DNA of 64,000 bases. It comes from Thermoplasmatota archaeon (lineage in GTDB: Archaea > Thermoplasmatota > E2 > JACPAO01 > JAHFTW01). Location: NCBI GenBank assembly GCA_049602735.1, contig JBMYRW010000002.1, forward strand, positions 3,760 through 67,759, written 5' to 3'. Below the pieces are notes generated by a model that searched no databases, was not told the DNA's origin, and saw only the letters and a list, made by a program, of their open reading frames with translations. Position 1 is the stretch's first letter. Each line of letters starts with the position of its first letter. A program made the position numbers and the translations under genes. This document shows, one piece after another, positions 3,635-42,873 of this stretch.

Positions 3635-6600
3635 ATGAGCAAGGACCTGCAACTGGATTTCACCGGCGGCGCCGGCAGCCCGCCCTCCCCCACCTCGGCG
3701 GAGCTGACGGACCTGGGCGCCCCTGAGACGCCGCCCTCTGAAGCCGCCCCGGCCCCCCTGGGCCTGCACGTGGACCGCCATTACACCACGCCGGGCCAGG
3801 ACCCCTATGCGGCGCTCGGCTGGAAGACCCGCAAGTCGGTCATCCAGAACCCGGACGGCTCCGTGGTGTTCCAGGTGGACGCGGCCGAGGTGCCCGACAC
3901 CTGGAGCCAGCTGGCCACCGACATCATCGTCTCCAAGTACTTCCGCAAGGCGGGCGTCCCCCAGGACGACGGCACGACCGGCGGCGAGACCTCCGCAGGC
4001 CAGGTCTGCCACCGCATCGCCACCACGATCCGCTGGTGGGGCGAGGAGCACGGCTACTTCGCCACCGCCGACGACGCCGAGACGTTCGAAGCGGAACTCA
4101 AGCACCTTCTGATCACCCAGCGGGGCGCCTTCAACAGCCCCGTCTGGTTCAACTGCGGCCACGAGCACGTCTACGGCATCCACGGCGGCAGCGGCAACTG
4201 GGCCTACAACGAAGAGACCGGCCAGGTCGAGAAGATCGACAACAACTACGCCCGGCCCCAGTGCAGCGCCTGCTTCATCCAGCGCGTCGAGGACAACCTC
4301 GTCGACGAGAAGGGCATCTTCGACCTGCTGGCCGCCGAGGCCCGCCTGTTCAAGTACGGCAGCGGCACCGGCAGCAACTTCAGCCGCGTGCGCAGCAAGT
4401 ACGAGAACCTCAGCGGCGGCGGCACCTCCAGCGGCCTCATGTCGTTCCTGAAGGTCCTGGACGCCGGCGCCGGGGCCACCAAGAGCGGCGGCACCACCCG
4501 CCGGGCCGCCAAGATGGTCAGCCTCGACATGGACCACCCGGAGATCCTCGACTTCATCACCTGGAAGGTCAACGAGGAGAAGAAGGTGGCAGCCCTCATC
4601 GCCGCCGGCTACGACTCTGACTTCAACGGCGAGGCGTACGGTACCGTCAGCGGCCAGAACAGCAACAACTCCGTGCGCGTGGCGGACGACTTCATGAACG
4701 CGGTCAAGGAGGACGGCGACTGGTCCACCTACCTGCGCACCCGCACGCCCGACGGCAAGCACATCGAGAGCGCCCAACCGGGCCCCCGCCAGGTCCACGC
4801 CACCTACAAGGCCCGCGAGCTGTGGGACAAGATCGGCTTCGCCGCCTGGGCCTGCGCCGACCCTGGCCTCCAGTACGACACCACGATCAACACGTGGCAC
4901 ACCTGCAAGGCGACGGGCAAGATCAACGGCTCCAACCCGTGCAGCGAGTACATGTTCCTCGACGACAGCGCCTGCAACCTGGCGTCGCTGAACCTCCTGC
5001 TCTTCATCGACTCCGAGGGCCGCTTCGACGTGGCCGCCTACCGCCATGCGGTGCGCGTCTTCTTCATCGCCCAGGAGATCCTCGTGGGCTTCAGCAGCTA
5101 CCCGACCCGTGAGATCGCCAAGAACTCCGAGGACTACCGTCCCCTGGGTCTTGGCTACGCCAACCTGGGCGCCCTCCTGATGGTCAGCGGCCTGCCGTAC
5201 GATTCCGAGGGCGGCCGTGCTGTCGCCGGCGCGCTCACGGCGATCCTCACCGGCCACGCCTACCGCGTCTCGGCGGAGATGGCGCAGGTCAAGGGCCCCT
5301 TCCGCGGCATCGAGGTCCAGGATGAGACCGGCCGCACCAACTGGGAGACCATGACCGAGGTCATCGGCATGCACCTGGACGCCGCCCGCCTCCTGCGCGA
5401 GACCGGCAGCCCGCTCCCGCAGATGCCCGGCCTCGGTGGCCCCACCGAGATGGCCCTTGCCCTGGGCGACGGTGGCCCCCTCGCTCGCTTCGCCAACACG
5501 TTCGACGCGGCGGTGGAGGACTGGGAGGCAGCCCTGGAGCTCGGCAAGCGCTTCGGCTGGCGCAACGCCCAGGCGACCGTGCTGGCCCCCACAGGCACCA
5601 TCGGCCTGCTGATGGACTGTGACACCACCGGCGTGGAGCCCGACTTCTCCCTGGTGAAGTTCAAGAAGCTGGCCGGCGGCGGTTACTTCAAGATCATCAA
5701 CCAGAGCGTCCCGGCGGCCCTGGAGAACCTGGGCTACAGCGACGAGGAGATCCAGCTCGTGGAGCGCTACGCGATCGGCCACGGCACCCTCGAGGGCGGC
5801 CCGGTCACCAAGGAGTCCCTCCTGGAGAAGGGCTTCACGGAGGAGCAGTACCAGGAGGCCTACGACGCCGTGGCCGCCAGCGGCTCCTTCAACGAGTGGA
5901 CCCCCGGCATCGACCCCAAGGCGATGCGCGCCGCCGGCTTCAGCAAGCAGGCCGTGGCGGAGCTCGTCGCCTACGTGGAGGGCCACCAGACCGTCGAGGG
6001 CAGCCTCGTCAAGGACGAACACCTGCCCATCTTCGACTGCGCCAACCGCTGCGGCGACGGCGAGCGCTTCATCCACCATGAGGGCCACATCCGTATGATG
6101 GCGGCGGCGCAGCCGTTCATCAGCGGTGCCATCAGCAAGACGATCAACATGCCCAACCAGGTCACCGTGGAGGACGTCCAGGGTGCCTACCAGCTCGGCT
6201 GGGAGCTCGATCTGAAGGCGGTCGCCCTGTACCGTGACGGCTGCAAGCTCAGCCAGCCCCTCAACACCAAGAGCGACAGTGAAGAGGAAGAGGAGGCGGA
6301 AGCCCCCGTCGTGGCGGCCCAGGCGGTCCCGATCCTGGTGGAAGGGCCCAAGCACGGTGAGACAGAGCAGCCTCCTCGTGACAACGACCAGGGCTTCAAG
6401 CGCACCGTGACCATCTACACGGCCCACGGCTCCGAGAAGCTGGACGTGCAGATCTGGGAGTACCCGGACGGCCGCCCCTGCGAGGTCTACGTCGGCGCCC
6501 GCAAGAGCGGCACCCTCACGGACAACTTCCTCAAGGAGATCGGCCGTAACTACAGCCGCCTCCTGCAACTCGGCCTCAGCCTCGATGAACTGACCCGCAA

Positions 6601-7081
6601 GCTCTCCAACGAGCACGGGCCGCTGGGCGGTCAGACCGACCACCGTTACATCAAGAGCTGCCTCGGCGTGCAGGACTTCCTGGGCAAGCTGCTGCGCTAC
6701 GAATACTTCGGCGAGACCGACTTCCTGTCCGTCAAGCCGGACCCCGAAGACCCGAACTACCTCCCCACGCGCCGTGAGGTCCTCGCAATGCTCCGCCTGG
6801 CCAAGCAGCGCCCGGCCACGGAGAAGACCCTGGCGGACTTCGAGGGCGTCGAAGCCGAGGCAACGGCCGCCACGGCGGACGCCGCTGTGGTGGAAGCACC
6901 CGTGGACGACGAAGAGGACGACCTCTCCCTACGCCTCGGCAAGGCCTCCAGCGACCCCAACGACGCCTACGCCAGCATGGGCGGCGACGCTCCGGCGTGC
7001 GACATGTGCGGCCATGTCACCGTGCGCAACGGTGCGTGCTACAAGTGCATGAACTGCGGCAACTCGATGGGTTGCAGCTGA
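3635..7081 (+). CDS. nrdJ: Adenosylcobalamin-dependent (class II) ribonucleoside-diphosphate reductase
   Basis: 1148 aa. Conserved class II RNR core (NSPVWFNCG, ACNL, CSEY-like motifs) and a C-terminal Cys-rich zinc-ribbon tail (CDMCGH..CYKCMNCGNSMGCS). There is an acidic low-complexity insertion (SDSEEEEEAEAP). The large antisense ORF 3425..6643 is spurious. Confidence 0.93.
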   Translation: MSKDLQLDFTGGAGSPPSPTSAELTDLGAPETPPSEAAPAPLGLHVDRHYTTPGQDPYAALGWKTRKSVIQNPDGSVVFQVDAAEVPDTWSQLATDIIVSKYFRKAGVPQDDGTTGGETSAGQVCHRIATTIRWWGEEHGYFATADDAETFEAELKHLLITQRGAFNSPVWFNCGHEHVYGIHGGSGNWAYNEETGQVEKIDNNYARPQCSACFIQRVEDNLVDEKGIFDLLAAEARLFKYGSGTGSNFSRVRSKYENLSGGGTSSGLMSFLKVLDAGAGATKSGGTTRRAAKMVSLDMDHPEILDFITWKVNEEKKVAALIAAGYDSDFNGEAYGTVSGQNSNNSVRVADDFMNAVKEDGDWSTYLRTRTPDGKHIESAQPGPRQVHATYKARELWDKIGFAAWACADPGLQYDTTINTWHTCKATGKINGSNPCSEYMFLDDSACNLASLNLLLFIDSEGRFDVAAYRHAVRVFFIAQEILVGFSSYPTREIAKNSEDYRPLGLGYANLGALLMVSGLPYDSEGGRAVAGALTAILTGHAYRVSAEMAQVKGPFRGIEVQDETGRTNWETMTEVIGMHLDAARLLRETGSPLPQMPGLGGPTEMALALGDGGPLARFANTFDAAVEDWEAALELGKRFGWRNAQATVLAPTGTIGLLMDCDTTGVEPDFSLVKFKKLAGGGYFKIINQSVPAALENLGYSDEEIQLVERYAIGHGTLEGGPVTKESLLEKGFTEEQYQEAYDAVAASGSFNEWTPGIDPKAMRAAGFSKQAVAELVAYVEGHQTVEGSLVKDEHLPIFDCANRCGDGERFIHHEGHIRMMAAAQPFISGAISKTINMPNQVTVEDVQGAYQLGWELDLKAVALYRDGCKLSQPLNTKSDSEEEEEAEAPVVAAQAVPILVEGPKHGETEQPPRDNDQGFKRTVTIYTAHGSEKLDVQIWEYPDGRPCEVYVGARKSGTLTDNFLKEIGRNYSRLLQLGLSLDELTRKLSNEHGPLGGQTDHRYIKSCLGVQDFLGKLLRYEYFGETDFLSVKPDPEDPNYLPTRREVLAMLRLAKQRPATEKTLADFEGVEAEATAATADAAVVEAPVDDEEDDLSLRLGKASSDPNDAYASMGGDAPACDMCGHVTVRNGACYKCMNCGNSMGCS

Positions 7082-7166
7082 GCACCGGGCCCTCCTTCTC
7101 CTTTCCTTCTCCCTGTTTTTGCAACGCCACGGCAACGCCCTTAGCGCGGGCGCCGGCTCAGCGCCT

Positions 7167-7712
7167 ATGCACAGACCACTCGCGCTCCTGGGCCTGCCAC
7201 TCCTGTTGCTGGCCGGCCTGGCCGGTTGCCTGGACGACCAAGAAGCCGGCAGCATCGACGCGGGCGGCGAGGCGGAAGGGCCCGCTGGCGAACGGCTCAC
7301 CGACCGTTCAGAACGCGGCGCCCAACGGGCCAACACGACACGTGAACCCATCCTTCAAGAGAGCATCACAGGACCTGGGAGCGCTCAGGCGACCATCCCG
7401 AACGGGACGTTGTACGTCTTGCTGACCCTGCGGCTTCAGACCCTCGCCGTCTTCCCAGAGATCACGATGACCGGATGTCCCTCCAAATCCCTCACGGTCA
7501 TCAGCTTCAGCGCCCTCGGCGAGATCACCTACACCAGGGAATGCCGGGACCCCGACGTCGGCGGCACGACGATCGAATGGACCTCCTCATCGCCGGTCAT
7601 GCTGGGGACTGTCGAAGCCGTCGCCCACGTCCTGGACGACGCCGCCGAGACGGAACCAGACGGTTCCGACGACGACCAGGCCGACGACGGCGCTTCAAGT
7701 ACCCCACGGTGA
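7167..7712 (+). CDS. Small acidic lipoprotein of unknown function
   Basis: Internal Met begins a signal peptide with lipobox: MHRPLALLGLPLLLLAGLAGCLDD. The mature protein is acidic. Start chosen by residue index within ORF 7119..7712. Confidence 0.6.
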   Translation: MHRPLALLGLPLLLLAGLAGCLDDQEAGSIDAGGEAEGPAGERLTDRSERGAQRANTTREPILQESITGPGSAQATIPNGTLYVLLTLRLQTLAVFPEITMTGCPSKSLTVISFSALGEITYTRECRDPDVGGTTIEWTSSSPVMLGTVEAVAHVLDDAAETEPDGSDDDQADDGASSTPR

Positions 7713-8930: not shown

Positions 8931-9914
8931 CTAGCAAAAACACCCGAGCACCCGCTCGGGGTTGATCCCCATGTCTTCTGCGACGGCGGTGGCCATCTCG
9001 GGGCATGGCTTGGCGCTGGCAGGCTCGGGCGGCTCCGGTAGGGCGGCGATGTACTCCTTGAGGTCGACGAAGCCGGCCGCGTCGAGGTCGCAGGCGGCCA
9101 CGAGCTTGTGGAAGCGGCTGCCCAGGAGCCCTTCGTCGGCCTGTTCGAAAAGTCGTTCGAGGCTGCCGTACTGGGTGATCGCCTTGACGGCGGTCTTGGG
9201 TCCGAACCCTTTGACGCCGGGGTGCCAGTCGGTGCCACAGACGATGGCGAGCTCTCGGAGCTGGTCGAGGCTGAGCCCGTGGGCGTCGATGTCCTCGAGG
9301 TGCAGCAGGAACGGCGCGGCGGCGCCCGCCTTGCGTAGGACCGTGGGGGCACCTGCCACCAGGGCGTCGAAGTCCTCCGTGGCCACCGCGTCGGCGTGGC
9401 CGGCATGGCACAGGGCAGCGGCGTACCGTTCGCCATCATGGTCGGCGCGGGTGACGGCGACGCCGAGCGGCTCCAGGAGTTTTGTGGCGTCGCCGATCAT
9501 GTCGTCGCTGAGGTAGACGGTGCCGCGCATGAGGCGGGCGTAGAGCTGGTGGTCGCCGGCCGCTTTGGCGGCGTTGGCGCGGGCCAGGGTCTCCTCCCGT
9601 TTGCGGATGCGTTCATCGACGGTCGCCTGCTTGCGGGGATGGACCTTGCCGTCCCAGATGATGATGGGTTCGGCGCCGCGTTCCCGGAACTGCTTGACCA
9701 GCCCCAGGAAGCCAAGGAGGTGGCCGATGGCGCGGCCGTCGTCGCCTCGCAGCACGTCCCCGTCACGTCCCCGTATGCTGGTGAGGTAACGGAAGGCGAC
9801 GTTGTGGGCGTCCACGGCGATGCGCTTGCCGTGGTACCAGTCGTTGGGCACCTCGTGTTGCGGGAACAGGTCGCGTAGGTTGACGCCCACGTCGCGGCGA
9901 CCCCTCTGGCCCAT
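8931..9914 (-). CDS. fen: Flap endonuclease 1 (archaeal FEN-1)
   Basis: Conserved FEN-1/XPG N and I domains (KRIAVDAHNVAFRYL, PIIIWDG, GTDWHPGVKGFGPKTA). Start is uncertain between ATG (MGQRG..., end 9914) and an in-frame GTG giving the MGVNLRDLF consensus. Confidence 0.9.
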   Translation of the reverse strand: MGQRGRRDVGVNLRDLFPQHEVPNDWYHGKRIAVDAHNVAFRYLTSIRGRDGDVLRGDDGRAIGHLLGFLGLVKQFRERGAEPIIIWDGKVHPRKQATVDERIRKREETLARANAAKAAGDHQLYARLMRGTVYLSDDMIGDATKLLEPLGVAVTRADHDGERYAAALCHAGHADAVATEDFDALVAGAPTVLRKAGAAAPFLLHLEDIDAHGLSLDQLRELAIVCGTDWHPGVKGFGPKTAVKAITQYGSLERLFEQADEGLLGSRFHKLVAACDLDAAGFVDLKEYIAALPEPPEPASAKPCPEMATAVAEDMGINPERVLGCFC

Positions 9915-26321: not shown

Positions 26322-26762
26322 TCAGGCCGGGATGAGGCCGCTGGCCTCGCCGGTGAGGGCTTCCAGGGCCGATTCGAAGCGGCCGGCGTGGATCTTCTCC
26401 GCCTTCGCCATCACTTCGAACCATTCGGCGATCTCCGTGAAGCCTTCGTCGCGGGCGACGCGGGCGAAGCCGGGATACATCTCCGTGAACTCGTAGACCT
26501 CGCCGGCGATGGCGGCCTTCAGGTTCTTGGCGGTGTCTCCGATGGGCACGTCCGTGACGGGGTCGGTGTCGAGCCAGTCGAGGTGGCCAAACGCATGCTT
26601 GGTCTCGCCGTTGCTGATGCTCCGGAACAGCGAGGCGGCCTCCTCTTGGCCCTCCGTGTCGGCGCGTTCTGCGAAGTAGAGGTAGCGGCGGTTGGCCTGG
26701 GATTCGCCCGCGAAGGCGGCCTTCAGGTTGTCGAGCGTCTGGGTTCCTTGCAGGTCGGTCAT
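26322..26762 (-). CDS. Rubrerythrin-family ferritin-like diiron protein (no rubredoxin domain)
   Basis: Two ExxH diiron motifs in a four-helix-bundle layout ([13 protein letters not shown]...ETKHAF; [10 protein letters not shown]...EKIHAGRF). Confidence 0.85.
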
Positions 26763-26772
26763 GGGGGTCTCC

Positions 26773-27255
26773 TTATTCGAGGTGGGCGCGCAGCATCCAG
26801 GCGGTCTTCTCCGACACGCTGCGCCGGTCGTCCAGAAGGGCGATCGTGGACTCGTCCGCGTGCTCTTCGGCCAGGGGGCGCACGTCGCGGATCGTCCGGA
26901 TGAGGGCTTCGTGGCCCGCGGCGAGGTCGGCGACCATGGCGTCCCAGGAGGGCACGCCGTCGGCCTCGGCGATGGTGGCGTGGGCGGCCAGGGCGCTGCC
27001 GGAGCCGGGGGCGGGGAAGCCGAGGCTGCGGATGCGTTCGGCCAGGTCGTCGTTGGCGATCCACAGTTCGTTGTACTGGGTCTCGAAGAGCGCGTGGAGT
27101 GCCTGGAAATGGGGGCCGGTGACGTTCCAGTGGTAGCCGTGGGTCTTGAGGTAGAGCGTGTAGCTGTCGGCCAGGACGCGGGTGAGGCCGTCGGCGATGG
27201 CGGCGCGGGCGTCTTCTGGGATGCCGATGTCGATGGCGGTCTTGGTCGGGCTCAT
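26773..27255 (-). CDS. dps: Dps-family DNA-protecting ferritin-like protein
   Basis: Dps ferroxidase-site motifs (HWNVTGPHFQALHALFE, ELWIANDDLAERIRSLG). Confidence 0.88.
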   Translation of the reverse strand: MSPTKTAIDIGIPEDARAAIADGLTRVLADSYTLYLKTHGYHWNVTGPHFQALHALFETQYNELWIANDDLAERIRSLGFPAPGSGSALAAHATIAEADGVPSWDAMVADLAAGHEALIRTIRDVRPLAEEHADESTIALLDDRRSVSEKTAWMLRAHLE

Positions 27256-27623
27256 GGTCGTTCCTTCAGGGTTCCTTTGAGTTCGAGGGTGCAGTCGGCG
27301 GGGCCGTCGAAGTGCTCGGAGCAGACGGCGGCCAGTTCGGCCTGGAGGCCGGTGGGGAGCGGGAGGTCGATGAGGCGGTCGGTGGCCGTGTCGCGCAGAT
27401 GGAGGTGGGGTGTGGTGTTGTGGTCGTAGCGGGCGTGGCCGTCGACCTGCCAGAGGGCCACGTCGCCGTCGGAGACGAGGCGGCCGAGGTTGCGGTATAC
27501 GGTGGCCAGGCTGACGCGGGGCAGCTGGCCGCGCACGTGCGCGAAGACCTCATCGGCAGTGGGGTGGTCCAGTTCGTGGACCGCGGCGAGGACCGCCTTG
27601 GACTGCCGGCTATTGGCTGCCAT
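27252..27623 (-). CDS. Fur-family transcriptional regulator (PerR/Fur-like)
   Basis: Fur DNA-binding helix 'SLATVYRNL', HxH/CxxC-type metal-site residues, ~123 aa. Overlaps the dps start by 4 nt. An ATG at 27621-27623 is preferred over the upstream TTG. Confidence 0.85.
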   Translation of the reverse strand: MAANSRQSKAVLAAVHELDHPTADEVFAHVRGQLPRVSLATVYRNLGRLVSDGDVALWQVDGHARYDHNTTPHLHLRDTATDRLIDLPLPTGLQAELAAVCSEHFDGPADCTLELKGTLKERP

Positions 27624-27630
27624 CAATCAG

Positions 27631-27651
27631 AAGTAGTAACTGTTCCTACTT
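27631..27651. promoter_or_regulatory. Palindromic operator candidate (AAGTAG-N9-CTACTT) immediately upstream of the fur start
   Basis: A perfect 6-bp inverted repeat in an AT-rich stretch, 8 nt from the fur ATG, in the divergent fur/ndk intergenic region. This is the typical position for an autoregulatory Fur/PerR box. Confidence 0.4.
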
Positions 27652-27733
27652 AGTGGTTGGGCCCAGGGCTGCCGCGCCGGGAGCCGCCCCTGTCGACCGT
27701 GCGTTTTTCAAACGCACCTTGGTCGCGCGGCCC

Positions 27734-28186
27734 ATGGCAGTCGAAACCACCTTCGTCATGATCAAGCCGGACGCCGTGCGCCGCGGACTCGTGGGCCAGA
27801 TCGTCGCCCGCTTCGAGGCCAAGGGCCTCAAGATCAAGGCCATGCGCCTGGAAGCCCCTGACGCCGACGTCGTCGCCAAGCACTACGAAGTCCACAAGGA
27901 GCGCCCCTTCTACAAGGCCCTCGTGGACTACATCATGGCCGGCCCCGTCGTCCCCATGATGGTCGAAGGCGAGAGCGCCATCAGCGTCAGCCGCGCCCTG
28001 ATGGGTGCCACCAACCCCGTCGAGGGCAAGCCGGGCGAGATCCGCTTCGACTTCGGCCAGACCATCGGCCGCAACATCATCCACGGCAGCGACGCCCCCG
28101 AGACCGCCGAGTTCGAGCTGGGCCTCTGGTTCCCCAACGGTGGCGCCGACTACGAGACCACCAGCGAAGGCTGGCTCTTCGAATAG
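27734..28186 (+). CDS. ndk: Nucleoside diphosphate kinase
   Basis: Near-canonical NDK sequence (ETTFVMIKPDAV, catalytic NIIHGSD). Confidence 0.93.
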   Translation: MAVETTFVMIKPDAVRRGLVGQIVARFEAKGLKIKAMRLEAPDADVVAKHYEVHKERPFYKALVDYIMAGPVVPMMVEGESAISVSRALMGATNPVEGKPGEIRFDFGQTIGRNIIHGSDAPETAEFELGLWFPNGGADYETTSEGWLFE

Positions 28187-28240
28187 GCCAATGTGCGTGC
28201 CAAAAGGACGATTAACCGAGGGCGCAATAGTGGAGTTGGC

Positions 28241-28483
28241 ATGGCGCAGTTGATGTCTCCCCGACAGATCGACCCTTCGGTGCTCCTTGAGTTTATCAGG
28301 CGCATGGGATACGACGTTGATGGTGAGTATATTACCAAAGAGGGTGGTCCCTACCACGATCCATGCACGGGCCTTCCCGTGAAATTCAACAAAATGATTA
28401 TCCTACAAGGTAGTGCGATTATTTTGGATGACAATCCAGTCAGCTTGGATTGGTACATGGACGAGTATCCGGGAACCCTTTAA
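28241..28483 (+). CDS. Hypothetical small protein (low-GC cassette, gene 1)
   Basis: ~80 aa from MAQLMSPRQIDPSVLLEFIRRMGYDVDGEY... No family recognised. Its stop abuts the next start. Confidence 0.45.
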   Translation: MAQLMSPRQIDPSVLLEFIRRMGYDVDGEYITKEGGPYHDPCTGLPVKFNKMIILQGSAIILDDNPVSLDWYMDEYPGTL

Positions 28484-29119
28484 ATGGGCGTCCGCCCAGC
28501 GGACATCGAAAGGGATGCCAAGGCGCTAGAGAAGCTTTGGCTAAGCAAGGACCTCCAGCTCGTACCAGATTCGAACGTTACGCCGCTGAAAAATGCCAGA
28601 GCCTCCCCAGAATTACGGCGTTTGAAAGAATATACGGTTGACGGCCAAGAACTACGCTGGCTTCGCATGGGGCTTGTAATGCGTGGCAAGCACGCCGATC
28701 TGGAGTACATAAATGAAATTAAAAGGGCACTTAGGCGTACGCAAGGCGACCCTGCTGTTTACGTAGCTCAGGCTGTTCAGTGCGGGGCGTTGGCTGAGGT
28801 TGTAACCTGGGCCGAAGCTACTTACGTTGCAGCTCAGGCAAGAATCGCGGTTAGAAAATTCATTGACCAAATCGAAACCACGACAGTATTTGTTGACATG
28901 GATGACGACTCTGATTATGTAGGGAATTTGGTCCTTTCAAGATTGAGGGTTAATTCACCAGATTGCTTCTTGCTTGCAGCAAGCGGAAGGGCGGTTTCCA
29001 TAGCTAAGAACGCCATGGGTGTGGTTGGTGCGCCCTTCGGGTATTCGATGAAAATCATAGACGAAGGAAATGTCTTCACTACACTGTTCACTCGAAAATT
29101 TATTGGCATGGAAGACTAA
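28484..29119 (+). CDS. Hypothetical protein (low-GC cassette, gene 2)
   Basis: 211 aa with normal protein composition and non-native codon usage. No family recognised. Confidence 0.55.
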   Translation: MGVRPADIERDAKALEKLWLSKDLQLVPDSNVTPLKNARASPELRRLKEYTVDGQELRWLRMGLVMRGKHADLEYINEIKRALRRTQGDPAVYVAQAVQCGALAEVVTWAEATYVAAQARIAVRKFIDQIETTTVFVDMDDDSDYVGNLVLSRLRVNSPDCFLLAASGRAVSIAKNAMGVVGAPFGYSMKIIDEGNVFTTLFTRKFIGMED

Positions 29120-29213
29120 GCGTCGCAGCCATGCGCAGCATTGCTGAACAAAGCTTACGGGCACCTGACCCCGTGCGATAACCCCTTCACCTTTCCCTCC
29201 AACTCTCTCTCCT

Positions 29214-30119
29214 GTGCGCCGCGCGCTGTTCGCCCTCATAGGGGTGCTCCTTCTGTTGGTCGCGGCCGACATCGGCCTCGACGCCTACATGTCCAGCGTC
29301 GCCGCCGACCGGATGGGCAACCACGACTTCGAGCGGGACCACGTCGTGACGCCGGCCGACTACGGTATGGCCTTCGAGGCGCTGCGCCTCGATTCGGACG
29401 GCCTCGCCCTGGCCGCCTGGTGGATCCCCGGCAACCAGACCGCCCCCGTGGTGGTCCTGGTGCATGGCCACGGCGCCACCATGGCGAAGTCCCTGGAGCG
29501 CTGGGGTCCGAACCTGCACGGTGCCGGCTACAACCTGTTCGCCGTCGATCTGCGCAACCATGGCGCTTCCGACGATGGCCCGGTCGGCGTCACATTCGGC
29601 GCCTCCGAGTGGCGTGACGTCGCTGCGGCCGTGGCGGCCGCCCGTGAGCGCGCCCCTGGTGCGCCGGTGGCACTGTACGGATCCTCCATGGGGGCAGCGA
29701 CGGTCCTCCTGGCAGCCGCTCAGGACCCCACGATCGCTGCCGTGGTCGCTGATTCAGGGTACGCCAGTTTCCGCTTCCAGGCCCACTTGGACGGCAAACA
29801 GGAGGGCTTCCCAGCTTTCCTCATCGACCGGGCGCTCGACGCCATGGACGAACGCGCCGGCGGTGGCGCGGACGCGCCCACGAGCGTCGATGCAGTGGCC
29901 GCCATCCAGGCCATCCGGGCCCCTGTGCTGGTGGCCCATTGCGCCGATGACGCAAGGGTGCAGCCGGCCTCCTTCGAGCGCTTGGCACCCTACGCGACGC
30001 AGACCTGGTTCGAGCCCTGCCCGACCGCCGTGCTCAGCGAGACGCACCACGTGGAAGGCTTCGCGCAGCCAGGCTACAACGAGATGGTGCTGCGGTTCCT
30101 CGCGGCCGCGATGCCCTGA
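29214..30119 (+). CDS. Alpha/beta-hydrolase fold protein with an N-terminal membrane anchor
   Basis: HGHG oxyanion motif, GxSxG nucleophile elbow (YGSSMGA), Asp/His triad candidates. N-terminal hydrophobic helix. Confidence 0.8.
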   Translation: MRRALFALIGVLLLLVAADIGLDAYMSSVAADRMGNHDFERDHVVTPADYGMAFEALRLDSDGLALAAWWIPGNQTAPVVVLVHGHGATMAKSLERWGPNLHGAGYNLFAVDLRNHGASDDGPVGVTFGASEWRDVAAAVAAARERAPGAPVALYGSSMGAATVLLAAAQDPTIAAVVADSGYASFRFQAHLDGKQEGFPAFLIDRALDAMDERAGGGADAPTSVDAVAAIQAIRAPVLVAHCADDARVQPASFERLAPYATQTWFEPCPTAVLSETHHVEGFAQPGYNEMVLRFLAAAMP

Positions 30120-30157
30120 CGCAGCCCCTCTTTAGCGGACGCCACGGTGCCGCCCGC

Positions 30158-30781
30158 GTGCACCTCTACGGTCACCTCTCCTCAGGCAACGCGTACAAGC
30201 CGTGGCTGCTGCTCAAGCTCCTCGGCCGCGACTTCGACCACACGCCCACCGGTTTCTGGGAGGAGACGCGGATGCCCGAGTTCCGGGCGCTGAATCCGAA
30301 TGGCAAGGTGCCGGTCCTGGTGGACGACGACTTCGTGCTCTGGGAGTCCAACGCCATCCTCTGCTACCTGGCGGAGGGGACGCCTTGGCTGCCGCGGGCG
30401 GACGAGGCAGGCGGCCGGACCCGGGCGAAGGTGCTGCAATGGCTGTTCTTCGAGCAGTACAGCCACGAGCCGTTCGTCGCCACCATGCGGGCGGCCATGC
30501 ACTTCCAGCCTGTGGGGCCGGAGCGGGACGCCTTCGTCGAGGGCAAGCGCAAGGGGGCCGAGCACGCCCTGGGCGTCATGGAGGGTCAACTGGCGGCGAC
30601 ACCGTGGCTTGCCGGCGACGCGCCGACCGTGGCCGACCTCAGCCTGTTCGCCTACACCTCCACCGCCGAGGAAGGGACGCTCAGCCTCGATGGCTATCCC
30701 GCCATCCGGGCCTGGCTGGACCGCGTGCGGGCCCTGCCGGGCTTTGCACCTCAGCCGCCGTTCGAGGACCCGCGGCTTTAG
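30158..30781 (+). CDS. Glutathione S-transferase family protein
   Basis: Thioredoxin-like N-domain (HLYGHLSSGNAYKPW...VPVLVDDDFVLWESNAILCYL) and helical C-domain. GTG start. Confidence 0.8.
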   Translation: MHLYGHLSSGNAYKPWLLLKLLGRDFDHTPTGFWEETRMPEFRALNPNGKVPVLVDDDFVLWESNAILCYLAEGTPWLPRADEAGGRTRAKVLQWLFFEQYSHEPFVATMRAAMHFQPVGPERDAFVEGKRKGAEHALGVMEGQLAATPWLAGDAPTVADLSLFAYTSTAEEGTLSLDGYPAIRAWLDRVRALPGFAPQPPFEDPRL

Positions 30782-37560: not shown

Positions 37561-38745
37561 TCATGGCATGAAGGCTTCTCGAAGTTCCGTGGCCGTAGCG
37601 TCCATCGTGTCCGCGAGCGTGACATGGTCGCACTCCTGGAACACAAGAAAGTCCGGAAGGGCATCCGCAAGTGCTTCGGCCAGGTCGGCCAGATCGAGGT
37701 CTTCAACTTCGAGATGAAAGTGGAGGATCTCGAGACGGCGCTCCTTCCGGTGGCGCTTGCAGTCCATCCTTCCAACAAACCGCCCGGCGTACAGGAGGGG
37801 CAAGCAGAAGTAACCATAGCGGCGCTTGGCCCGTGGAACAAAGCATTCGAGGCGATAATCGAATCCGAAGAGTTCCAGCAACCGGTCGCGCTGGATGATG
37901 GCGTTGTCGAACGGCGACAGGATCTGAAGGCGGTCATCGACCGGCGGCGGTTCATCAAGATCCAACGTTGAAGAAGCCAGGAACTGCGACCCATCATCGT
38001 CCGTGACCAGTTCCAACTCGCCTGCATCAAGGCGCGACGCGACGTTCTCCTCAACGGCCGCCTTCAGGCCTGCCAATTTCCTTCCATAGGCAATGTGCTT
38101 CACCTGGAAAATGCCGTGGGCGCGCTCATGGCGAGCAACGAGGCGATCCGCGAACTCCTCCAACGTCGGGGCTTCCGAATCGACGCCAGCCGGCAAGACC
38201 CGTTCCGTGAGGTCGTACGTCTTCTGCCCTCCTTCGCGGCTTGCGACCATCAACGCGCCTTCCATGAACAATTGTTCGAGCGCCTGCTTGGCGGGCTTCC
38301 AATCCCACCAGCCACCACCCTTTCGTCCACCGGACTTGAAATCACTGGAGCGCAGGGGCCCCTCGGCACGGATCCGTCGCAGAACGCCGGCCATCATGTC
38401 CCGGTCCGGATCCTTGTACCAATGCACCTGCCCATCGCGAAGGGCGTGCTTGTACGGCAAGGAATAACGAAAATCCTCCATCGGCATGAGCGCGGCGGCG
38501 TGCGCCCAATGCTCGAACGCTTTGCCCTCCGCCAACAGCCGGTGCGTCATCGGCGAATCGAACCTGGGCACGCGTGAGAAGAGGACATGGTGGTGCGCTT
38601 GTTGCACCACGGAGATGGCATCGACCTGGACGTAGCCAAGATGCTGGAGGCAGCGCGTGGCCCCTTCGAAGCCGGACCCGAAACGGCTCGCCTGCTGCAA
38701 CCCTTGTGCTTGAAGGGCCAATCGGCCTAGATCTGCCTGCTTCAA
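37561..38745 (-). CDS. Winged-helix DNA glycosylase of the YcaQ/AlkZ family (HTH_42; interstrand-crosslink repair glycosylase-like)
   Basis: Close motif-level match to E. coli YcaQ: HHVLFSRV..EHWAHAAALMP, GWWDWKPAK, FDYRLECFVPRAKRRYGYFCLPLLYAGRFVGRMDCKRHR. Confidence 0.8.
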   Translation of the reverse strand: MKQADLGRLALQAQGLQQASRFGSGFEGATRCLQHLGYVQVDAISVVQQAHHHVLFSRVPRFDSPMTHRLLAEGKAFEHWAHAAALMPMEDFRYSLPYKHALRDGQVHWYKDPDRDMMAGVLRRIRAEGPLRSSDFKSGGRKGGGWWDWKPAKQALEQLFMEGALMVASREGGQKTYDLTERVLPAGVDSEAPTLEEFADRLVARHERAHGIFQVKHIAYGRKLAGLKAAVEENVASRLDAGELELVTDDDGSQFLASSTLDLDEPPPVDDRLQILSPFDNAIIQRDRLLELFGFDYRLECFVPRAKRRYGYFCLPLLYAGRFVGRMDCKRHRKERRLEILHFHLEVEDLDLADLAEALADALPDFLVFQECDHVTLADTMDATATELREAFMP

Positions 38746-38861
38746 GCTCTTCGATGGAGGGATGTTGGCGTTGTTCTTGGGGGTGTCTAACGGCTCTCGA
38801 AGGAACCTGCGGCGAGCGTAGCGAGGCGTCGGGTTGAGCGATTCGTTAGGAGGCGCCGCGG

Positions 38862-39599
38862 CTACCGGGCTTTGCCTTGGGTTGCCGAAAGGTGCACGGC
38901 GAGCGACTTGAGGAAGGCGGTGATACTGATTTCGGGCTCCTCGTCGATCCAGTCACCGCTGTCGGTTGCGGTGGCCGGCGACATGAGTAGCGCGGTGCCG
39001 TCGTAGAGGAGCTGAACCCGGAGCTTCTGGCAAAACAACACGTACCGCTTGGCGTACGATGCTTGGCCGAACTCGGGCAATGGGTCGAAGTGCGGCGAGA
39101 AAACCTTGACCGGCGCGCGCGATTTGGGAGCGTCTTCCAGGAGCATGAGCCACCCGAGCCACGGAGAGCTTGCCCCGAATGCGCCGTGGTCAATGGCTGC
39201 GCGCGTGTCGGCCGCCGTGCCCATGGCTTCCTCCGTGCGGTTGTTGAAGTTGTTCCCGAAGCTCGGGCCGACCTGGGACTTCAGCTCGATGGCGGCGAGG
39301 AGTTGGCCGTCGTGAAGGACCAAGAGATCCCATTGCTTGCTGGCCCGGTAGAATCCGGGCAACTCCAAACGGGATCCCGTGTGAACGGATTCCTCGGGGA
39401 GTCCGACGTGGTGGACGACTTCGCGGATGAGTTCGACGAAGCCGTCCATGTGCTTGCCCCCCGTGACTTGGGAGCGGGCACCGTAGTCTTGGACCGTGCC
39501 GGCTTCCACTTGCTTGGTTGCCTGTCCTTGGCGGGTTCGCCAGTAGTGGCGGACGGCATCCCGGATGTGTGCTTCCAAGTCGGCCGGCAGTAGGTCCAC
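38862..39599 (-). CDS. Type II restriction endonuclease-like protein (XhoI/PaeR7I-like, from recollection)
   Basis: 245 aa directly downstream of, and co-oriented with, the methyltransferase. Contains 'LLAAIELKSQVGPSFGNNFNNRTEE', which I associate with the XhoI REase family. Family assignment is from memory only. Confidence 0.55.
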   Translation of the reverse strand: MDLLPADLEAHIRDAVRHYWRTRQGQATKQVEAGTVQDYGARSQVTGGKHMDGFVELIREVVHHVGLPEESVHTGSRLELPGFYRASKQWDLLVLHDGQLLAAIELKSQVGPSFGNNFNNRTEEAMGTAADTRAAIDHGAFGASSPWLGWLMLLEDAPKSRAPVKVFSPHFDPLPEFGQASYAKRYVLFCQKLRVQLLYDGTALLMSPATATDSGDWIDEEPEISITAFLKSLAVHLSATQGKAR

Positions 39600-39606
39600 G
39601 TCTTAG

Positions 39607-41046
39607 CTAGGCCGGCACAGAGACTAAAGTCCGTTGTTTCGAGAACGCGGCCGGGACCGGAAGCCGGGCCAAGGTCTTGGATTGGAGGCGAAGGTGGCCC
39701 CCTGCCGCGCTCATGCAATGGCCTTCCAGCCAGGCTCGGGCCTTCTCCGAATTGAGATACTCGGCGAGCACCTCCAGTTGGTCCATGTCTTTGGGGATGA
39801 TGTAGTACACCGAATGCTTGGGCATGGAGCCCGTGCGGTCGATGTGGAAAACCGGAGTCCTCTGGATGTCCTGGACCACGATTTTGGGTCCTTCGAACTC
39901 CTTTGGGCGCGGTCGTTCGTGGTACTCATACCAGGCGCGGCTCCCCTTCGCGTGGCACGATCGCTTGACAAGCCGCTCGCGGTGGTGCGCCATGGCCAGG
40001 TACTCTGCCGCTGCGCCGAGAGAGGCCTCTGGCACAAGCCGTCCTGCGCCGTCGTAGGGGAACACCATCTGCGATCGGGGCTCGATGGCTTCGCCTTCAA
40101 CCGCCGGCAGATCACGACCGGACAACGCAGGCCGTACGTACTCCGCCGGAATCATGCGGGCTTCGTCTGGAGCCAGTTCGAAGACCGCGTCGGCTCCTGT
40201 GGCGACGCCTACACCGATCCGAGAGCAAACGTCGGCCAATGTCAGGACTCCTTCGTCAACGTCTGACTCCCCGAACAGGCAAAACCAGGGGGACTCGCAG
40301 AGGGATGCTTGCTCGACTGAACGGGACTCCCCCTTCCGCTCATCGTGGACCTGAACACGGTGCTTTGGACCGGGACGTTGGTTGAGTAGATGCGTGATCG
40401 CCGGGTACGTGACAAGGTCGGGGAATGCGTCTTCGGCCAGAATCACGACTCCGCGCAGCTCCCGTGTCGCAAGGAGCTTGCGTAGGCCACTTCCACTCCA
40501 GACCTGGGCGTACTTCTGGGGCGTGATGAAGCAGAGTTGACCCTCAGAAGCCAAGAGCCGCAATCCTTGTTCGAAGAACAGGAAGTAGAGGTCGTACCGG
40601 TTTACGGCGCTCTGGAATTGCCGGCGGTAGCGCCGGCGGTCAAGTTCAGCGAGCCCCTCCAAACGCACGTAGGGCGGGTTGCCGATGACCAAGTCGAAGC
40701 CGGCCTCCTCGAAGCGCGTGAAGTCGCACTCCACTACCAAACTGGCCAGGTCGGCATCGGTTGGCTGGAATCCATGCTCTGCCAGCACGTGCTGGGCCTG
40801 CTCGCGGCAGACTGACAACGGTTTGGGGTCCAACTCGACGCCGCGCACGCGCTCAACGACCCAACTCAAGGGGTGTCCGTGCGTCGCTGCGTAGCTGGCG
40901 TACTCTTCCAGGATTGGCAGGAAGAATGCACCTTCCCCGCAACCGGGGTCCAAGACGTACGCTCCACGTTCAGCCAGCTTTGGTAGGCTAGCCATCGCGA
41001 GCATCCGCTGGACAATCCCTGGTGGCGTCGGGTGCTGACCGATCAT
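39607..41046 (-). CDS. N6-adenine DNA methyltransferase (gamma-class, Eco57I/TaqI-like N6_Mtase)
   Basis: AdoMet motif I 'VLDPGCGEGAF' and catalytic motif IV 'VIGNPPYV' in gamma-class order. 479 aa. Confidence 0.85.
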   Translation of the reverse strand: MIGQHPTPPGIVQRMLAMASLPKLAERGAYVLDPGCGEGAFFLPILEEYASYAATHGHPLSWVVERVRGVELDPKPLSVCREQAQHVLAEHGFQPTDADLASLVVECDFTRFEEAGFDLVIGNPPYVRLEGLAELDRRRYRRQFQSAVNRYDLYFLFFEQGLRLLASEGQLCFITPQKYAQVWSGSGLRKLLATRELRGVVILAEDAFPDLVTYPAITHLLNQRPGPKHRVQVHDERKGESRSVEQASLCESPWFCLFGESDVDEGVLTLADVCSRIGVGVATGADAVFELAPDEARMIPAEYVRPALSGRDLPAVEGEAIEPRSQMVFPYDGAGRLVPEASLGAAAEYLAMAHHRERLVKRSCHAKGSRAWYEYHERPRPKEFEGPKIVVQDIQRTPVFHIDRTGSMPKHSVYYIIPKDMDQLEVLAEYLNSEKARAWLEGHCMSAAGGHLRLQSKTLARLPVPAAFSKQRTLVSVPA

Positions 41047-41580: not shown

Positions 41581-42873
41581 CTAAACGATTGCAGCCATCC
41601 GATGCAAATGCCGTCTCGCCATCACCGGCACTTCATACCACCCAACGGAAACCCCCCGCTCCTCCACTTCGACCAAGGCCTCAGAAGTCGAAGCCCCACA
41701 CGTCGGACACCGCCACCCGGCGTCGGCCCCGGCACTCTTCATCCGATCCCCACACGCACAGGTCGGGTTGGCCACTTTCACCTTGGACTCCGCCAGGGAA
41801 ACGACACGCAGTTTCTCCAGATGCACGGTGGCATCCCGCAACGCCCCGACCACTTCGACGGCATCGCCAGGCCGCAATGCGCGCACCACGTCGCGGAATT
41901 TCTTGGTGGGCTCGAACGCCGCCGCCTGGAACGCCCTACCAACAGGATCCTCCAGATCGACCAGGACATGCCCGCCACTCCGGGTCCTCGGCATCCCGGC
42001 CACGGTTGCCGCGAGGTGGACGGTCCCCAGTTCTGGCGCTTCGGCGAGTGCTTCCACGGGGGTGACGTGGTCGCCGCTGGCCTGGTTGGTGGCCCAGAGG
42101 AGCCAGCCGTCGATGGGTTCCCGGGCGGCGGCGCCGAGGGCGCGTACGCCCCAGTCCCGCAGCTTCTCCGGGTCGCGGCCGCGTAGCCCCAGGAGGACGG
42201 GGCACGGCGTGGCGGGAACGCAGGCGAGGCGTCCCTCTTCGGGGTCGGTGGTGTGGAACGTGATGCCGGCGCGGTCCAGGCCCTGCAGGGGCCCCGGTTC
42301 GACGGCGCGGGGTTTGCCCCATTGGGGCGGTTGACGGTAGGCGATCAGTTCGTAGCTGCTCGGGGGGCCCGGCCAGGCGGCCGCTGCGGCGCAACCGACA
42401 AGCGCCCGGTCGTCGCCCCGCGTTTGGAGGAGGGCGCCGCTGGCTTCCAGGTCGGCGCGGGCCTGCGGGGGGTCGACGACGGTGCGCACGGCGGCCCAGT
42501 AGGCCCACGGGAGGGGCAGCGGGCGGGGCAGCAGCGCGACGGCGGGGTTGGCGTCCCCTTGGGCGACGTTGTCGAGGGCGTTCCAGACGGCCTCCAACCG
42601 TTCCGGCGTCGGTTCGGCGGGGCGCCCTTCTGGGAAGGCGAGAATCTCGCGGCCTTGCAGTTCGCCGATGCGGGTCTGGGCCCCTTCCGGGTGGCCCAGC
42701 GGCACGGCGACGGCGGCGTTGCCGCGGGTCTTCCACGGGACGTTGGGGTTCAGACGCACCAGGCGCGGCAGGGCCAGCGGCGCCAGGTCGGGCAGGGCGA
42801 GGAGCGCGTGGAAGAGGGCGTGGGTGGTGCAGCCGCCGCCTGGGCCGTCCGTGTCGTCGAAGGCGAGGAGCAC
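41581..42873 (-). CDS. tiaS: tRNA(Ile2) 2-agmatinylcytidine synthetase TiaS
   Basis: N-terminal 'LLAFDDTDGPGGGCTTHA' matches the TiaS TCKD signature (DDTDS..GMCTTY). C-terminal Zn-ribbon CxxC...CxxC. Archaea-specific enzyme. Confidence 0.85.
   Translation of the reverse strand: MLLAFDDTDGPGGGCTTHALFHALLALPDLAPLALPRLVRLNPNVPWKTRGNAAVAVPLGHPEGAQTRIGELQGREILAFPEGRPAEPTPERLEAVWNALDNVAQGDANPAVALLPRPLPLPWAYWAAVRTVVDPPQARADLEASGALLQTRGDDRALVGCAAAAAWPGPPSSYELIAYRQPPQWGKPRAVEPGPLQGLDRAGITFHTTDPEEGRLACVPATPCPVLLGLRGRDPEKLRDWGVRALGAAAREPIDGWLLWATNQASGDHVTPVEALAEAPELGTVHLAATVAGMPRTRSGGHVLVDLEDPVGRAFQAAAFEPTKKFRDVVRALRPGDAVEVVGALRDATVHLEKLRVVSLAESKVKVANPTCACGDRMKSAGADAGWRCPTCGASTSEALVEVEERGVSVGWYEVPVMARRHLHRMAAIV

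What the first reader, a model, noticed from the sequence alone, without database searches (positions are those of the whole stretch)
28187..29120. Low-GC two-gene cassette of unknown function inserted between ndk and a hydrolase gene
GC drops to ~50% over ~930 bp. Two abutting ORFs (~80 aa and 211 aa; stop and start at 28481-28486) use A/T-ending codons foreign to this genome. Neither protein matches a family I recognise. A small and a larger protein, translationally coupled, on a compositional island is the signature of mobile toxin-antitoxin or abortive-infection defence modules. This is a candidate novel system.
Basis: seen in the sequence. Interest (0 to 1): 0.6.

Follow-up and report, generated by a model that had tools for sequence, protein, structure and literature searches.

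The report
Mobile two-gene archaeal cassette, function unknown
A 1-kb AT-rich insert next to the ndk gene of a Thermoplasmatota archaeon carries a small-plus-large gene pair from a previously undescribed family that rides on integrative elements and transposons in other uncultured archaea; its biochemical function is unknown and is most plausibly toxin-antitoxin-like or defensive.

Summary
Window 28187-29120 is 49.8% GC in a 67% GC genome, the only such dip in 64 kb. It holds two abutting genes, ORF1 (28241-28483, 80 aa) and ORF2 (28484-29119, 211 aa), joined by TAAATG.

Neither protein matches Pfam, NCBIfam, PADLOC, PHROGs or PDB. They are not orphans, though. An exhaustive HMMER search found about 55 distant ORF2 homologs. 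In 12 of 12 independent genomic contexts (archaeal wherever markers allow a call), the ORF2 homolog follows an ORF1 homolog of 80-84 aa. The two genes overlap, abut or lie within 13 nt of each other.

Both genes are under purifying selection. The pair is AT-richer than its flanks in all 12 contexts, and no third gene is conserved.

In relatives the pair is cargo of:
- a 3.0-kb tRNA-Lys integrative element with 127-nt att repeats;
- a 6.7-kb DDE transposon with 10-bp inverted ends and 9-bp target duplications.

Mobility and novelty are supported. A toxin-antitoxin or defence function remains an inference (about 45%). The C-terminal domain gives only sub-threshold Alba similarity.

The parts
27734..28186 (+). 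ndk (nucleoside diphosphate kinase). Native left flank; stop codon TAG at 28184-28186.
   Evidence: Pfam NDK E 2.8e-50; GC3 0.93.
28191..29182 (+). Inferred inserted segment (about 0.99 kb, roughly 50% GC). It lies between the ndk stop (+GGCC) and the CT-rich tract that follows ndk directly in the closest relatives.
   Evidence: GC profile. L027/L028 share TTCGAATAGGCC with the window and then diverge. The CT-rich tract is displaced to 29183-29215. The boundaries are inferred, not proven.
28187..28240 (+). 54-nt spacer upstream of ORF1, with an SD-like GGAG at 28232-28235 (5 nt before the ATG) and only a weak A/T-rich box (GATTAA). Homologs carry clear TATA-like boxes about 30-40 nt upstream of their ATG.
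   Evidence: Sequence; upstream regions of 12 contexts. Promoter function was not tested.
28241..28483 (+). ORF1: 80-aa acidic protein (pI 4.4). It is the small partner of the conserved pair.
   Evidence: 31-38% identical over full length to the small ORFs upstream of ORF2 homologs. Leave-one-out HMM gives 80 bits, E 5e-27. 14 columns are invariant among the six aligned small proteins. No Pfam, PADLOC, PHROG, NCBIfam or PDB hit.
28481..28486 (+). TAAATG stop-start junction. ORF1 and ORF2 are in the same frame, separated by a single stop codon, which suggests termination-reinitiation coupling.
   Evidence: Sequence. The two closest relatives, L122 and L123, also abut (TGAATG); other relatives overlap by 4-17 nt or are 3-13 nt apart.
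28484..29119 (+). ORF2: 211-aa protein (pI 6.6). The N-terminal ~125 aa are helical with conserved motifs (QMGLxLR, GLHIAQxVQxG). The C-terminal ~85 aa form an alpha/beta domain (FVxxxD ... P ... SGxA ... Y) with sub-threshold Alba similarity.
   Evidence: 57 hits at E<=1e-3 among 1.84 billion representatives: the query itself, one spurious repeat protein (P0049) and about 55 true homologs. Alignment A1. Leave-one-out HMM gives 126.7 bits, E 5e-41. Alba hits in 4 of 54 members, below threshold. hhalign probability 14.7%.
29183..29215 (+). CT-rich tract (CCCTTCACCTTTCCCTCCAACTCTCTCTCCTGT). Probably the native 3' tract of ndk, displaced by the insertion. It overlaps the hydrolase start by 2 nt.
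   Evidence: Only 5 such tracts on the + strand of the 64 kb. Similar tracts lie 10-30 nt after the ndk stop in L027, L028, L030 and L031.
29214..30119 (+). Alpha/beta hydrolase gene. Right flank, with native composition.
   Evidence: Pfam Hydrolase_4 E 5.9e-17 and Abhydrolase_1; GC3 0.86.

Best explanation
SHOWN: The island is a horizontally acquired, self-contained two-gene operon of about 1 kb. It encodes a small acidic 80-aa protein followed, in tight translational linkage, by a 211-aa protein. Both belong to a previously undescribed gene-pair family of uncultured archaea. The pair is the only conserved unit. It occurs as cargo on integrative elements and a DDE transposon, and as 'naked' 1-kb AT-rich islets between housekeeping genes. 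The window copy is such an islet, sitting between the ndk stop codon and what looks like the native 3' CT-rich tract of ndk.

INFERRED (about 45%): It works as an addiction or defence-type module, in the manner of type II toxin-antitoxin or Abi pairs. The two proteins would be made in fixed stoichiometry through translational coupling. The small acidic protein would bind and hold in check the larger, neutral-to-basic protein. The larger protein's conserved helical N-domain and possibly Alba-like alpha/beta C-domain would act on nucleic acid. Loss of the element, or infection, would upset the balance and release the large protein's activity, which would favour retention of the carrying element or protect the host.
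For: Foreign origin:
- GC 0.498 vs 0.673, z = -5.2.
- GC3 0.51-0.58 vs 0.86-0.93 in neighbouring genes.
- Absent downstream of ndk in 12 contigs with 68-81% identical NDK, and no A1/A3 HMM hit in any of the 80 ndk loci.

Real genes in a real family:
- About 55 ORF2 homologs.
- Leave-one-out HMM E-values of 5e-41 (ORF2) and 5e-27 (ORF1).
- pN 0.11-0.30 against saturated pS 0.6-0.9 for both genes.

Obligate pair:
- 12 of 12 distinct contexts have small followed by large, with 1:1 co-occurrence.
- The genes overlap by 4-17 nt, abut, or lie 3-13 nt apart. In five overlapping relatives (L107, L110, L115, L118; degenerate in L117), a GAGGAG formed by the conserved EEY codons sits 7 nt before the large gene's ATG.
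- No recurrent third gene.

Mobility:
- L107 has a 127-nt direct repeat (97% identical) overlapping the 3' end of tRNA-Lys. It brackets a 3,014-bp element made of integrase + pair + one membrane protein.
- L110-L114 share a 6,733-bp block that is 100% identical in different flanks. It has a perfect 10-bp TIR and 9-bp TSDs at two sites, and carries a SWIM/DDE transposase, an N6_N4 methyltransferase and the pair.
- In L115 an integrase lies directly upstream.

Context and composition:
- The pair is AT-richer than its flanks in 12 of 12 contexts, and the dip is confined to about 1 kb in the window, L118, L128 and L132.
- Charge asymmetry: small pI 4.2-5.0, large pI 6.6-9.3.
Against: - No homology to any known toxin, antitoxin or defence protein: PADLOC, Pfam, NCBIfam, PHROGs and PDB are all negative for 54 large and 6 small homologs.
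- The conserved polar residues of ORF2 (E43, R67, Q99, Y187) do not form a recognisable catalytic motif.
- At long range the small protein is more conserved than the large one (32-38% vs 21-24%). This is the opposite of the usual fast-evolving antitoxin.
- Only 1-2 of 12 contexts are clearly defence islands.
- There is no usable structure. Single-sequence AF2 gave pLDDT 33 and 46.
- The window copy has no integrase, tRNA or flanking repeats, so how it got there is unknown.
Confidence: 0.45

Rival explanations
1. A non-toxic maintenance or regulatory module of archaeal mobile elements. For example, the large protein could be an element-encoded DNA- or chromatin-binding (Alba-like) or replication/immunity protein, with the small protein as its cofactor. 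The window copy would then be the surviving remnant of a decayed integrative element.
For: In L107 and L115 the pair lies immediately downstream of the integrase, in the same orientation. In L107 it makes up most of a 3-kb element that has no other candidate for element functions. Weak but collinear Alba similarity in the C-terminal domain. The small partner is well conserved, as expected for a structural cofactor. The AT-rich composition would suit a protein dealing with AT-rich foreign DNA.
Against: The pair stays intact in at least 6 contexts with no integrase or transposase gene called in the sequence held around it (window, L117, L118/119, L122, L128, L130). It is also a passenger on a DDE transposon that needs no such function. 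The small protein is acidic, unlike excisionases or repressors. The Alba match is below threshold (16 bits against a cut-off of 25; hhalign 14.7%).
Confidence: 0.3
2. A remnant of an archaeal virus (provirus fragment) encoding virion or early proteins.
For: AT-rich relative to the host, and adjacent to integrases in some relatives.
Against: No relative was found in IMG/VR with five queries, in 50,697 phage records or in PHROGs. No viral hallmark genes lie in any of the 12 contexts.
Confidence: 0.07
3. Native lineage-specific genes of this archaeon that merely have odd composition, or an assembly/binning chimera, or chance ORFs.
For: Only one genome carries this exact sequence. No flanking repeats or recombinase in the window.
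Against: Homologs occur in unrelated contexts and hosts spanning 35-67% GC, and both genes are under purifying selection. The cassette is absent from related ndk loci. An independent Logan assembly gives the same junctions. The GC3 shift of 0.35-0.4 is confined to the two ORFs.
Confidence: 0.04

Closest known systems
Type II toxin-antitoxin operons (for example epsilon/zeta, with a small acidic antitoxin upstream of a larger toxin; or archaeal VapBC)
   Same: Two co-directional, translationally coupled genes, with a small acidic product first and a larger neutral-to-basic product second. The distribution is patchy and MGE-borne. The pair occurs as solitary ~1-kb AT-rich islets and as transposon or integrative-element cargo.
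   Different: No sequence similarity to any known toxin or antitoxin family. There is no Walker motif (zeta) and no PIN, RelE, HEPN or other recognisable catalytic signature. The small partner is the better conserved one at long range. Toxicity and neutralisation are untested.
Alba / Sso10b superfamily (Pfam PF01918; archaeal DNA/RNA-binding chromatin protein; beta-alpha-beta-alpha-beta-beta IF3-C fold)
   Same: The C-terminal ~85 aa of the ORF2 family has a hydrophobicity pattern compatible with beta-alpha-beta-alpha-beta-beta, and an SG-x-A motif where Alba has RG-[RK]-A at the beta2/alpha2 junction. 4 of 54 members give collinear sub-threshold Pfam Alba hits, and hhalign aligns the same alpha1-beta2-alpha2 segment.
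   Different: Scores are below the gathering threshold (best 16.3 bits shown, against 25). hhalign probability is only 14.7%. The PDB profile search does not retrieve Alba. There is an extra ~125-aa helical N-domain. The family is MGE-borne and paired with a small partner, unlike chromosomal Alba.
Passenger (cargo) genes of archaeal tRNA-targeting integrative elements and of IS-derived transposons
   Same: Relatives sit inside a tRNA-Lys integrative element bounded by 127-nt att repeats, and inside a TIR/TSD-bounded DDE transposon alongside a DNA methyltransferase.
   Different: The window copy has lost, or never had, the vehicle. There is no integrase, transposase, tRNA, att site or TIR within the island.
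Abortive-infection and defence-island genes (for example AIPR, AbiE; PADLOC / DefenseFinder systems)
   Different: No PADLOC model matches any of the 54 large or 6 small proteins consistently. The association is seen in a minority of contexts and was not tested statistically.

Membership tests
Type II toxin-antitoxin system | Two adjacent co-directional genes forming one tightly coupled operon | tested here: met
   TAAATG junction in the window. Overlap of 4-17 nt, abutment or a 3-13 nt gap in all 12 contexts.
Type II toxin-antitoxin system | Homology of either partner to a known toxin or antitoxin superfamily | tested here: not met
   Pfam, NCBIfam, PADLOC, PHROGs and PDB are negative for the window proteins and for 54 large and 6 small homologs.
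Type II toxin-antitoxin system | The large product is growth-inhibitory and is neutralised by direct binding of the small product | not testable with these tools
   Needs expression and rescue assays plus a complex model. Only charge asymmetry (pI 4.4 vs 6.6-9.3) is available.
Type II toxin-antitoxin system | Patchy distribution associated with mobile elements | tested here: met
   Absent from related ndk loci. Cargo of an integrative element and a transposon.
Known anti-phage defence systems (PADLOC-DB v2) | Match to a defence-system protein model | tested here: not met
   0 families for both window proteins. Only scattered single-member chance hits among the 54 homologs.
Known anti-phage defence systems (PADLOC-DB v2) | Statistical enrichment in defence islands | tested here: inconclusive
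   [not shown]
Alba superfamily (PF01918) | Score at or above the Pfam gathering threshold, or a confident profile-profile match | tested here: not met
   Alba hits in 4 of 54 members, best E 9e-4. The two seen in detail score 16.3 and 14.7 bits against a cut-off of 25. hhalign probability 14.7%, P 0.0018. No Alba chain in the PDB profile search.
Alba superfamily (PF01918) | Beta-alpha-beta-alpha-beta-beta (IF3-C) fold | tested here: inconclusive
   The only model is single-sequence AF2 with pLDDT 33. The conserved pattern in A2 is compatible with the fold but does not prove it.
Native housekeeping gene of the ndk locus | Conserved presence, synteny and native composition in relatives | tested here: not met
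   12 contigs with 68-81% identical ndk have other genes downstream with native GC (0.56-0.73) and no A1/A3 hit.
Integrative element or transposon (the window copy itself) | Recombinase gene plus att direct repeats or TIR/TSD at the borders | tested here: not met
   No tRNA in 64 kb. No flanking repeats. There is no room for another gene: 54 nt upstream and 94 nt downstream. These features are met only in relatives L107 and L110-114.

The most novel reading that the evidence does not exclude
The pair founds a new family of two-component toxin-antitoxin or anti-virus systems, found so far only in uncultured archaea. Its effector would combine a novel helical domain with an Alba-like nucleic-acid-binding domain and would be controlled by a novel 80-aa acidic partner. 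The module would spread as a minimal 1-kb unit on integrative elements and transposons across hosts spanning 35-67% GC.
Probability: 0.3. Interest if true: 0.7.

Novelty: new variant of a known kind. Interest (0 to 1): 0.55.

Why it matters
Far fewer archaeal defence and addiction modules are catalogued than bacterial ones, and most catalogues are built from bacterial models. This study defines a two-gene family that no curated library covers (Pfam 2025, NCBIfam 2026, PADLOC, PHROGs, PDB). It also gives hard evidence that the family moves: att repeats in a tRNA-Lys element, TIR/TSD in a 100%-identical multi-site transposon, and solitary 1-kb islets. The result is a concrete, cloneable candidate of two genes totalling less than 1 kb for toxicity/rescue and phage or virus challenge tests. 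If the C-terminal domain is truly Alba-like, it would link a core archaeal chromatin/RNA-binding fold to mobile-element biology. If the pair proves to be a benign MGE gene pair, the interest falls to that of a new DUF pair.

Tried and rejected
1. Curated libraries gave no meaningful hit for either window protein. Pfam showed only dsrm at E 0.037 for ORF1, which did not recur in 5 other small proteins and was rejected as chance. PADLOC, PHROGs and NCBIfam gave nothing.

2. The word-indexed homolog search found only the proteins themselves. Only the exhaustive phmmer search found the family. The profile re-search through the word index returned just 8 proteins.

3. The models have pLDDT 33 and 46 and are unusable, so no fold search was run. 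This was the main lost opportunity.

4. PDB profile searches with the full-length, C-terminal and small-protein profiles returned only noise.

5. The Alba hypothesis was tested by hhalign against Sso10b alone (7.4%) and against four verified PDB Alba sequences (14.7%). The result is inconclusive.

6. The genome-contig scan with the hydrolase returned only 30-37% identical bacterial homologs, so no close relative genome was found. The metagenome scan with ORF2 found nothing.

7. IMG/VR (5 scans) and phage and plasmid tblastn found nothing.

8. Conserved flanking non-coding sequence, terminal repeats around the pair, and a recurrent third gene were all looked for and not found.

9. Rfam found nothing in 27600-29400.

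10. P0049 (760 aa) was rejected as a spurious hit to a repeat protein.

11. Literature searches for the run accession and for Alba / integrase / TA in archaea found nothing relevant.

12. Host taxonomy of the relatives could not be assigned.

Full report
**1. Observation**

The window comes from a ~67% GC archaeon. NCBI names the two proteins 'MAG: hypothetical protein ACPGQL_00835/_00840 [Thermoplasmatota archaeon]', and an archaeal TiaS gene lies at 41584-42873.

Between ndk (27734-28186; Pfam NDK E 2.8e-50) and an alpha/beta hydrolase gene (29214-30119), GC falls to 0.498 over 28187-29120.
- This is the lowest 930-bp window in the 64 kb, at z = -5.2. The next lowest elsewhere is 0.595.
- Two ORFs fill the island: ORF1 at 28241-28483 (80 aa) and ORF2 at 28484-29119 (211 aa), joined by TAAATG in the same frame.
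- Their GC3 is 0.58 and 0.505, against 0.86-0.93 for six neighbouring genes.
- An independent Logan assembly of run SRR27204701 has the same arrangement.

**2. Not orphans: a conserved gene pair**

Curated libraries give nothing for either protein: Pfam, PADLOC, PHROGs and NCBIfam. The word-indexed search of 5.8 billion proteins returns only the proteins themselves.

The exhaustive phmmer search of 1.84 billion cluster representatives gives a different picture.
- It finds 57 hits at E <= 1e-3 for ORF2. These are the query itself, one spurious repeat protein, and about 55 homologs of 160-247 aa at 19-32% identity.
- They align over the full length. G63 is invariant, and E43, R67, A95, Q99, P159, A170 and Y187 are nearly invariant.

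I recovered genomic contexts for ten homologs. With the window this makes 12 distinct contexts.
- In every one, an 80-84 aa ORF sits immediately upstream on the same strand.
- These small ORFs are homologous to ORF1: 31-38% identity over the full length, with 14 columns invariant among the six aligned small proteins. This also fixes the ORF1 start at ATG 28241.
- Leave-one-out HMMs score the window proteins at 126.7 bits (ORF2, E 5e-41) and 80 bits (ORF1, E 5e-27).
- An HMM scan of all ORFs in all 132 fetched loci shows strict 1:1 co-occurrence. There are no extra copies in the window and none in the 80 ndk loci.

Among four relatives, pN is 0.11-0.30 while pS is saturated at 0.6-0.9 for both genes, so both encode proteins under purifying selection.

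The junction is always tight.
- It abuts (TAAATG or TGAATG) in the window and its two closest relatives, L122 and L123, which are also from high-GC hosts.
- It overlaps by 4-17 nt in most other relatives and leaves a 3-13 nt gap in two.
- In five overlapping relatives (L107, L110, L115, L118; degenerate in L117), a GAGGAG formed by the conserved EEY codons of the small gene lies 7 nt before the large gene's ATG.

The small proteins are acidic (pI 4.2-5.0) and the large ones neutral to basic (pI 6.6-9.3).

**3. Mobility**

The closest ndk loci available are 12 contigs with 68-81% identical NDK. They carry other genes with native GC downstream of ndk and have no cassette.

Three of the four closest have a CT-rich tract 10-30 nt after the ndk stop. 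In the window such a tract lies at 29183-29215, directly after the cassette, and it is one of only five on the + strand. L027 and L028 share TTCGAATAGGCC with the window and then diverge. I infer an insertion of about 0.99 kb (roughly 28191-29182) between the ndk stop and its native 3' tract.

In relatives the pair clearly travels.

| Locus | Evidence |
|---|---|
| L107 | A 127-nt direct repeat (97% identical; 6481-6607 and 9495-9621) overlaps the 3' part of tRNA-Lys(UUU). It brackets a 3,014-bp element of tyrosine integrase + pair + one membrane protein. GC drops from 0.56-0.60 to 0.34-0.39 over the cargo. |
| L110-L114 | A 6,733-bp block is 100% identical in contigs with different flanks. 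It ends in a perfect 10-bp TIR (GGCTTTGCTC...GAGCAAAGCC) with 9-bp target duplications (GCAAATAGG in L110; GCCCTGAAA in L112/L114). It carries a SWIM/DDE_Tnp_1 transposase, an N6_N4 methyltransferase, unknown ORFs and the pair. |
| L115 | A 393-aa integrase lies directly upstream, inside a region of many small ORFs with a second integrase. |
| L117 | The pair sits alone between housekeeping genes. |
| L128, L130 | No integrase or transposase gene is called near the pair. |
| L118 | The pair lies 318 nt after a complete archaeal 16S rRNA gene. |

Three further points:
- The pair is AT-richer than its flanks in 12 of 12 contexts (-0.036 to -0.20). In the window, L118, L128 and L132 the dip is confined to the pair.
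- No third gene recurs, and no flanking non-coding sequence is conserved.
- The window copy has no integrase, tRNA, att site or TIR.

**4. What the proteins look like**

The N-terminal ~125 residues of ORF2 are predicted helical and carry the conserved motifs QMGLxLR and GLHIAQxVQxG. The C-terminal ~85 residues form an alpha/beta unit with the pattern FVxxxD ... P ... SGxA ... Y.

The evidence for an Alba-like C-domain is weak.
- 4 of 54 members give sub-threshold Pfam Alba hits (best E 9e-4).
- Two of these were examined and are collinear with the C-domain: P0051 residues 152-200 match Alba positions 4-51, and P0019 residues 167-212 match Alba positions 19-64.
- hhalign of the C-domain profile against four PDB-verified Alba sequences aligns alpha1-beta2-(G-x-A)-alpha2, but with only 14.7% probability.
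- PDB profile searches do not retrieve Alba.

The Alba link is therefore a lead, not a finding.

ORF1's only hit, dsrm at E 0.037, does not recur in homologs.

**5. Mechanism**

Shown: this is a foreign, self-contained, tightly coupled two-gene operon from an undescribed family, archaeal wherever the host can be identified, that travels as MGE cargo.

Inferred, at about 45%: it acts as an addiction or defence-type module. The small acidic protein would bind and restrain the larger, possibly nucleic-acid-binding protein. This reading rests on:
- the architecture of the pair;
- the charge asymmetry between the two proteins;
- the solitary-islet behaviour;
- carriage on a transposon or integrative element alongside a methyltransferase;
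- one defence-island neighbour.

Against it:
- there is no homology to any toxin, antitoxin or defence family;
- there is no catalytic signature;
- the small partner is the better conserved at long range;
- few contexts are clearly defensive.

The main rival, at about 30%, is a non-toxic MGE maintenance or regulatory pair, such as an element-encoded Alba-like DNA-binding protein plus a cofactor. Three observations count against it. The pair stays intact in at least six contexts without any called integrase or transposase gene. It rides on a transposon that needs no such function. And the small protein is acidic.

Provirus remnant (about 7%) and native gene or artefact (about 4%) are unlikely.

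**6. Comparison and novelty**

The pair works most like a type II TA or Abi-style two-gene cargo module. It fails the homology criterion for membership in any known TA or defence family, and it fails the threshold for Alba.

It is best described as a new variant of a known kind: an MGE-borne two-gene accessory module built from two undescribed protein families. None of Pfam (2025), NCBIfam (2026), PADLOC v2, PHROGs v4 or PDB covers it.

**7. Verdict**

Its 'mobile' and 'novel' claims are upheld and considerably strengthened. Its TA/Abi reading remains a plausible but unproven inference.

Interest is 0.55. The result is a concrete, testable archaeal candidate system, but its function is still unknown.

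Noticed in passing
window 37564-41046 (region 37-42 kb, about 62% GC): A second, milder low-GC region holds an AlkZ-like DNA glycosylase (37564-38550, -), an XhoI-family restriction endonuclease (38865-39599, -; Pfam E 1.4e-70) and an adjacent Eco57I/TaqI_C-type N6 methyltransferase (39610-41046, -). This is a type II R-M system about 10 kb from the cassette.
   Followed up: partly
window 26322-27626 (- strand): A rubrerythrin - Dps/ferritin - Fur cluster lies divergent from ndk. It is an oxidative-stress and iron regulon with native composition.
   Followed up: no
window 27734-30781 vs L027:1-833 and L028:156-1276: In the closest ndk relatives (81% aa identity), a GST homolog (52-56% identical to the window GST at 30158-30781) lies immediately upstream of ndk and divergent from it. 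In the window, Fur occupies that position and GST is 2 kb downstream and co-directional. The ndk neighbourhood has therefore been rearranged. The intervening hydrolase has only 30-37% identical homologs in the species-representative genome collection, all bacterial (Dehalococcoidia, Streptomyces).
   Followed up: partly
L110:4110-10842 (= L111:3888-10620, L112:2532-9264): A 6.73-kb DDE (SWIM + DDE_Tnp_1) transposon, 100% identical at several insertion sites, with a 10-bp perfect TIR and 9-bp TSDs. Besides the pair it carries an N6_N4 methyltransferase and unknown 309-, 388-, 93-, 62- and 122-aa ORFs. L111 and L113 have junctions without matching TSDs, which suggests recombination between copies or assembly across repeats.
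   Followed up: partly
L107:6459-9621: A minimal 3.0-kb integrative element in tRNA-Lys(UUU), with 127-nt att repeats. It consists of a 254-aa tyrosine integrase starting 3 nt after attL, the pair, and a 183-aa protein with four apparent hydrophobic transmembrane segments.
   Followed up: yes
L118:4123-7448: A complete archaeal 16S rRNA (5963-7448), a 5S rRNA (4123-4235) and a 113-nt tRNA, probably intron-containing (5478-5590, -), lie just upstream of the pair. The 16S could give the host taxonomy but no reference database was available.
   Followed up: no
L122:1188-1928: The 740-nt non-coding stretch after the pair contains two copies of a 26-nt tRNA-like motif (GGxCGGCTTAGCTCAxxCGTTxGxCG; 1241 and 1619) and three copies of GTTATGCGCCAT (1753-1798). 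A perfect 12-nt inverted repeat (16-27 / 1195-1206) brackets the pair, though about 0.16 such pairs are expected by chance. ARAGORN finds no tRNA.
   Followed up: partly
[not shown]
   Followed up: no
window 28481-28486; L122:504-509; L123:524-529: In the high-GC subfamily the two genes are in the same reading frame, separated by a single stop codon (TAA or TGA), so stop-codon read-through would give a fusion protein. No naturally fused homolog (~310 aa) was among the 57 hits.
   Followed up: partly
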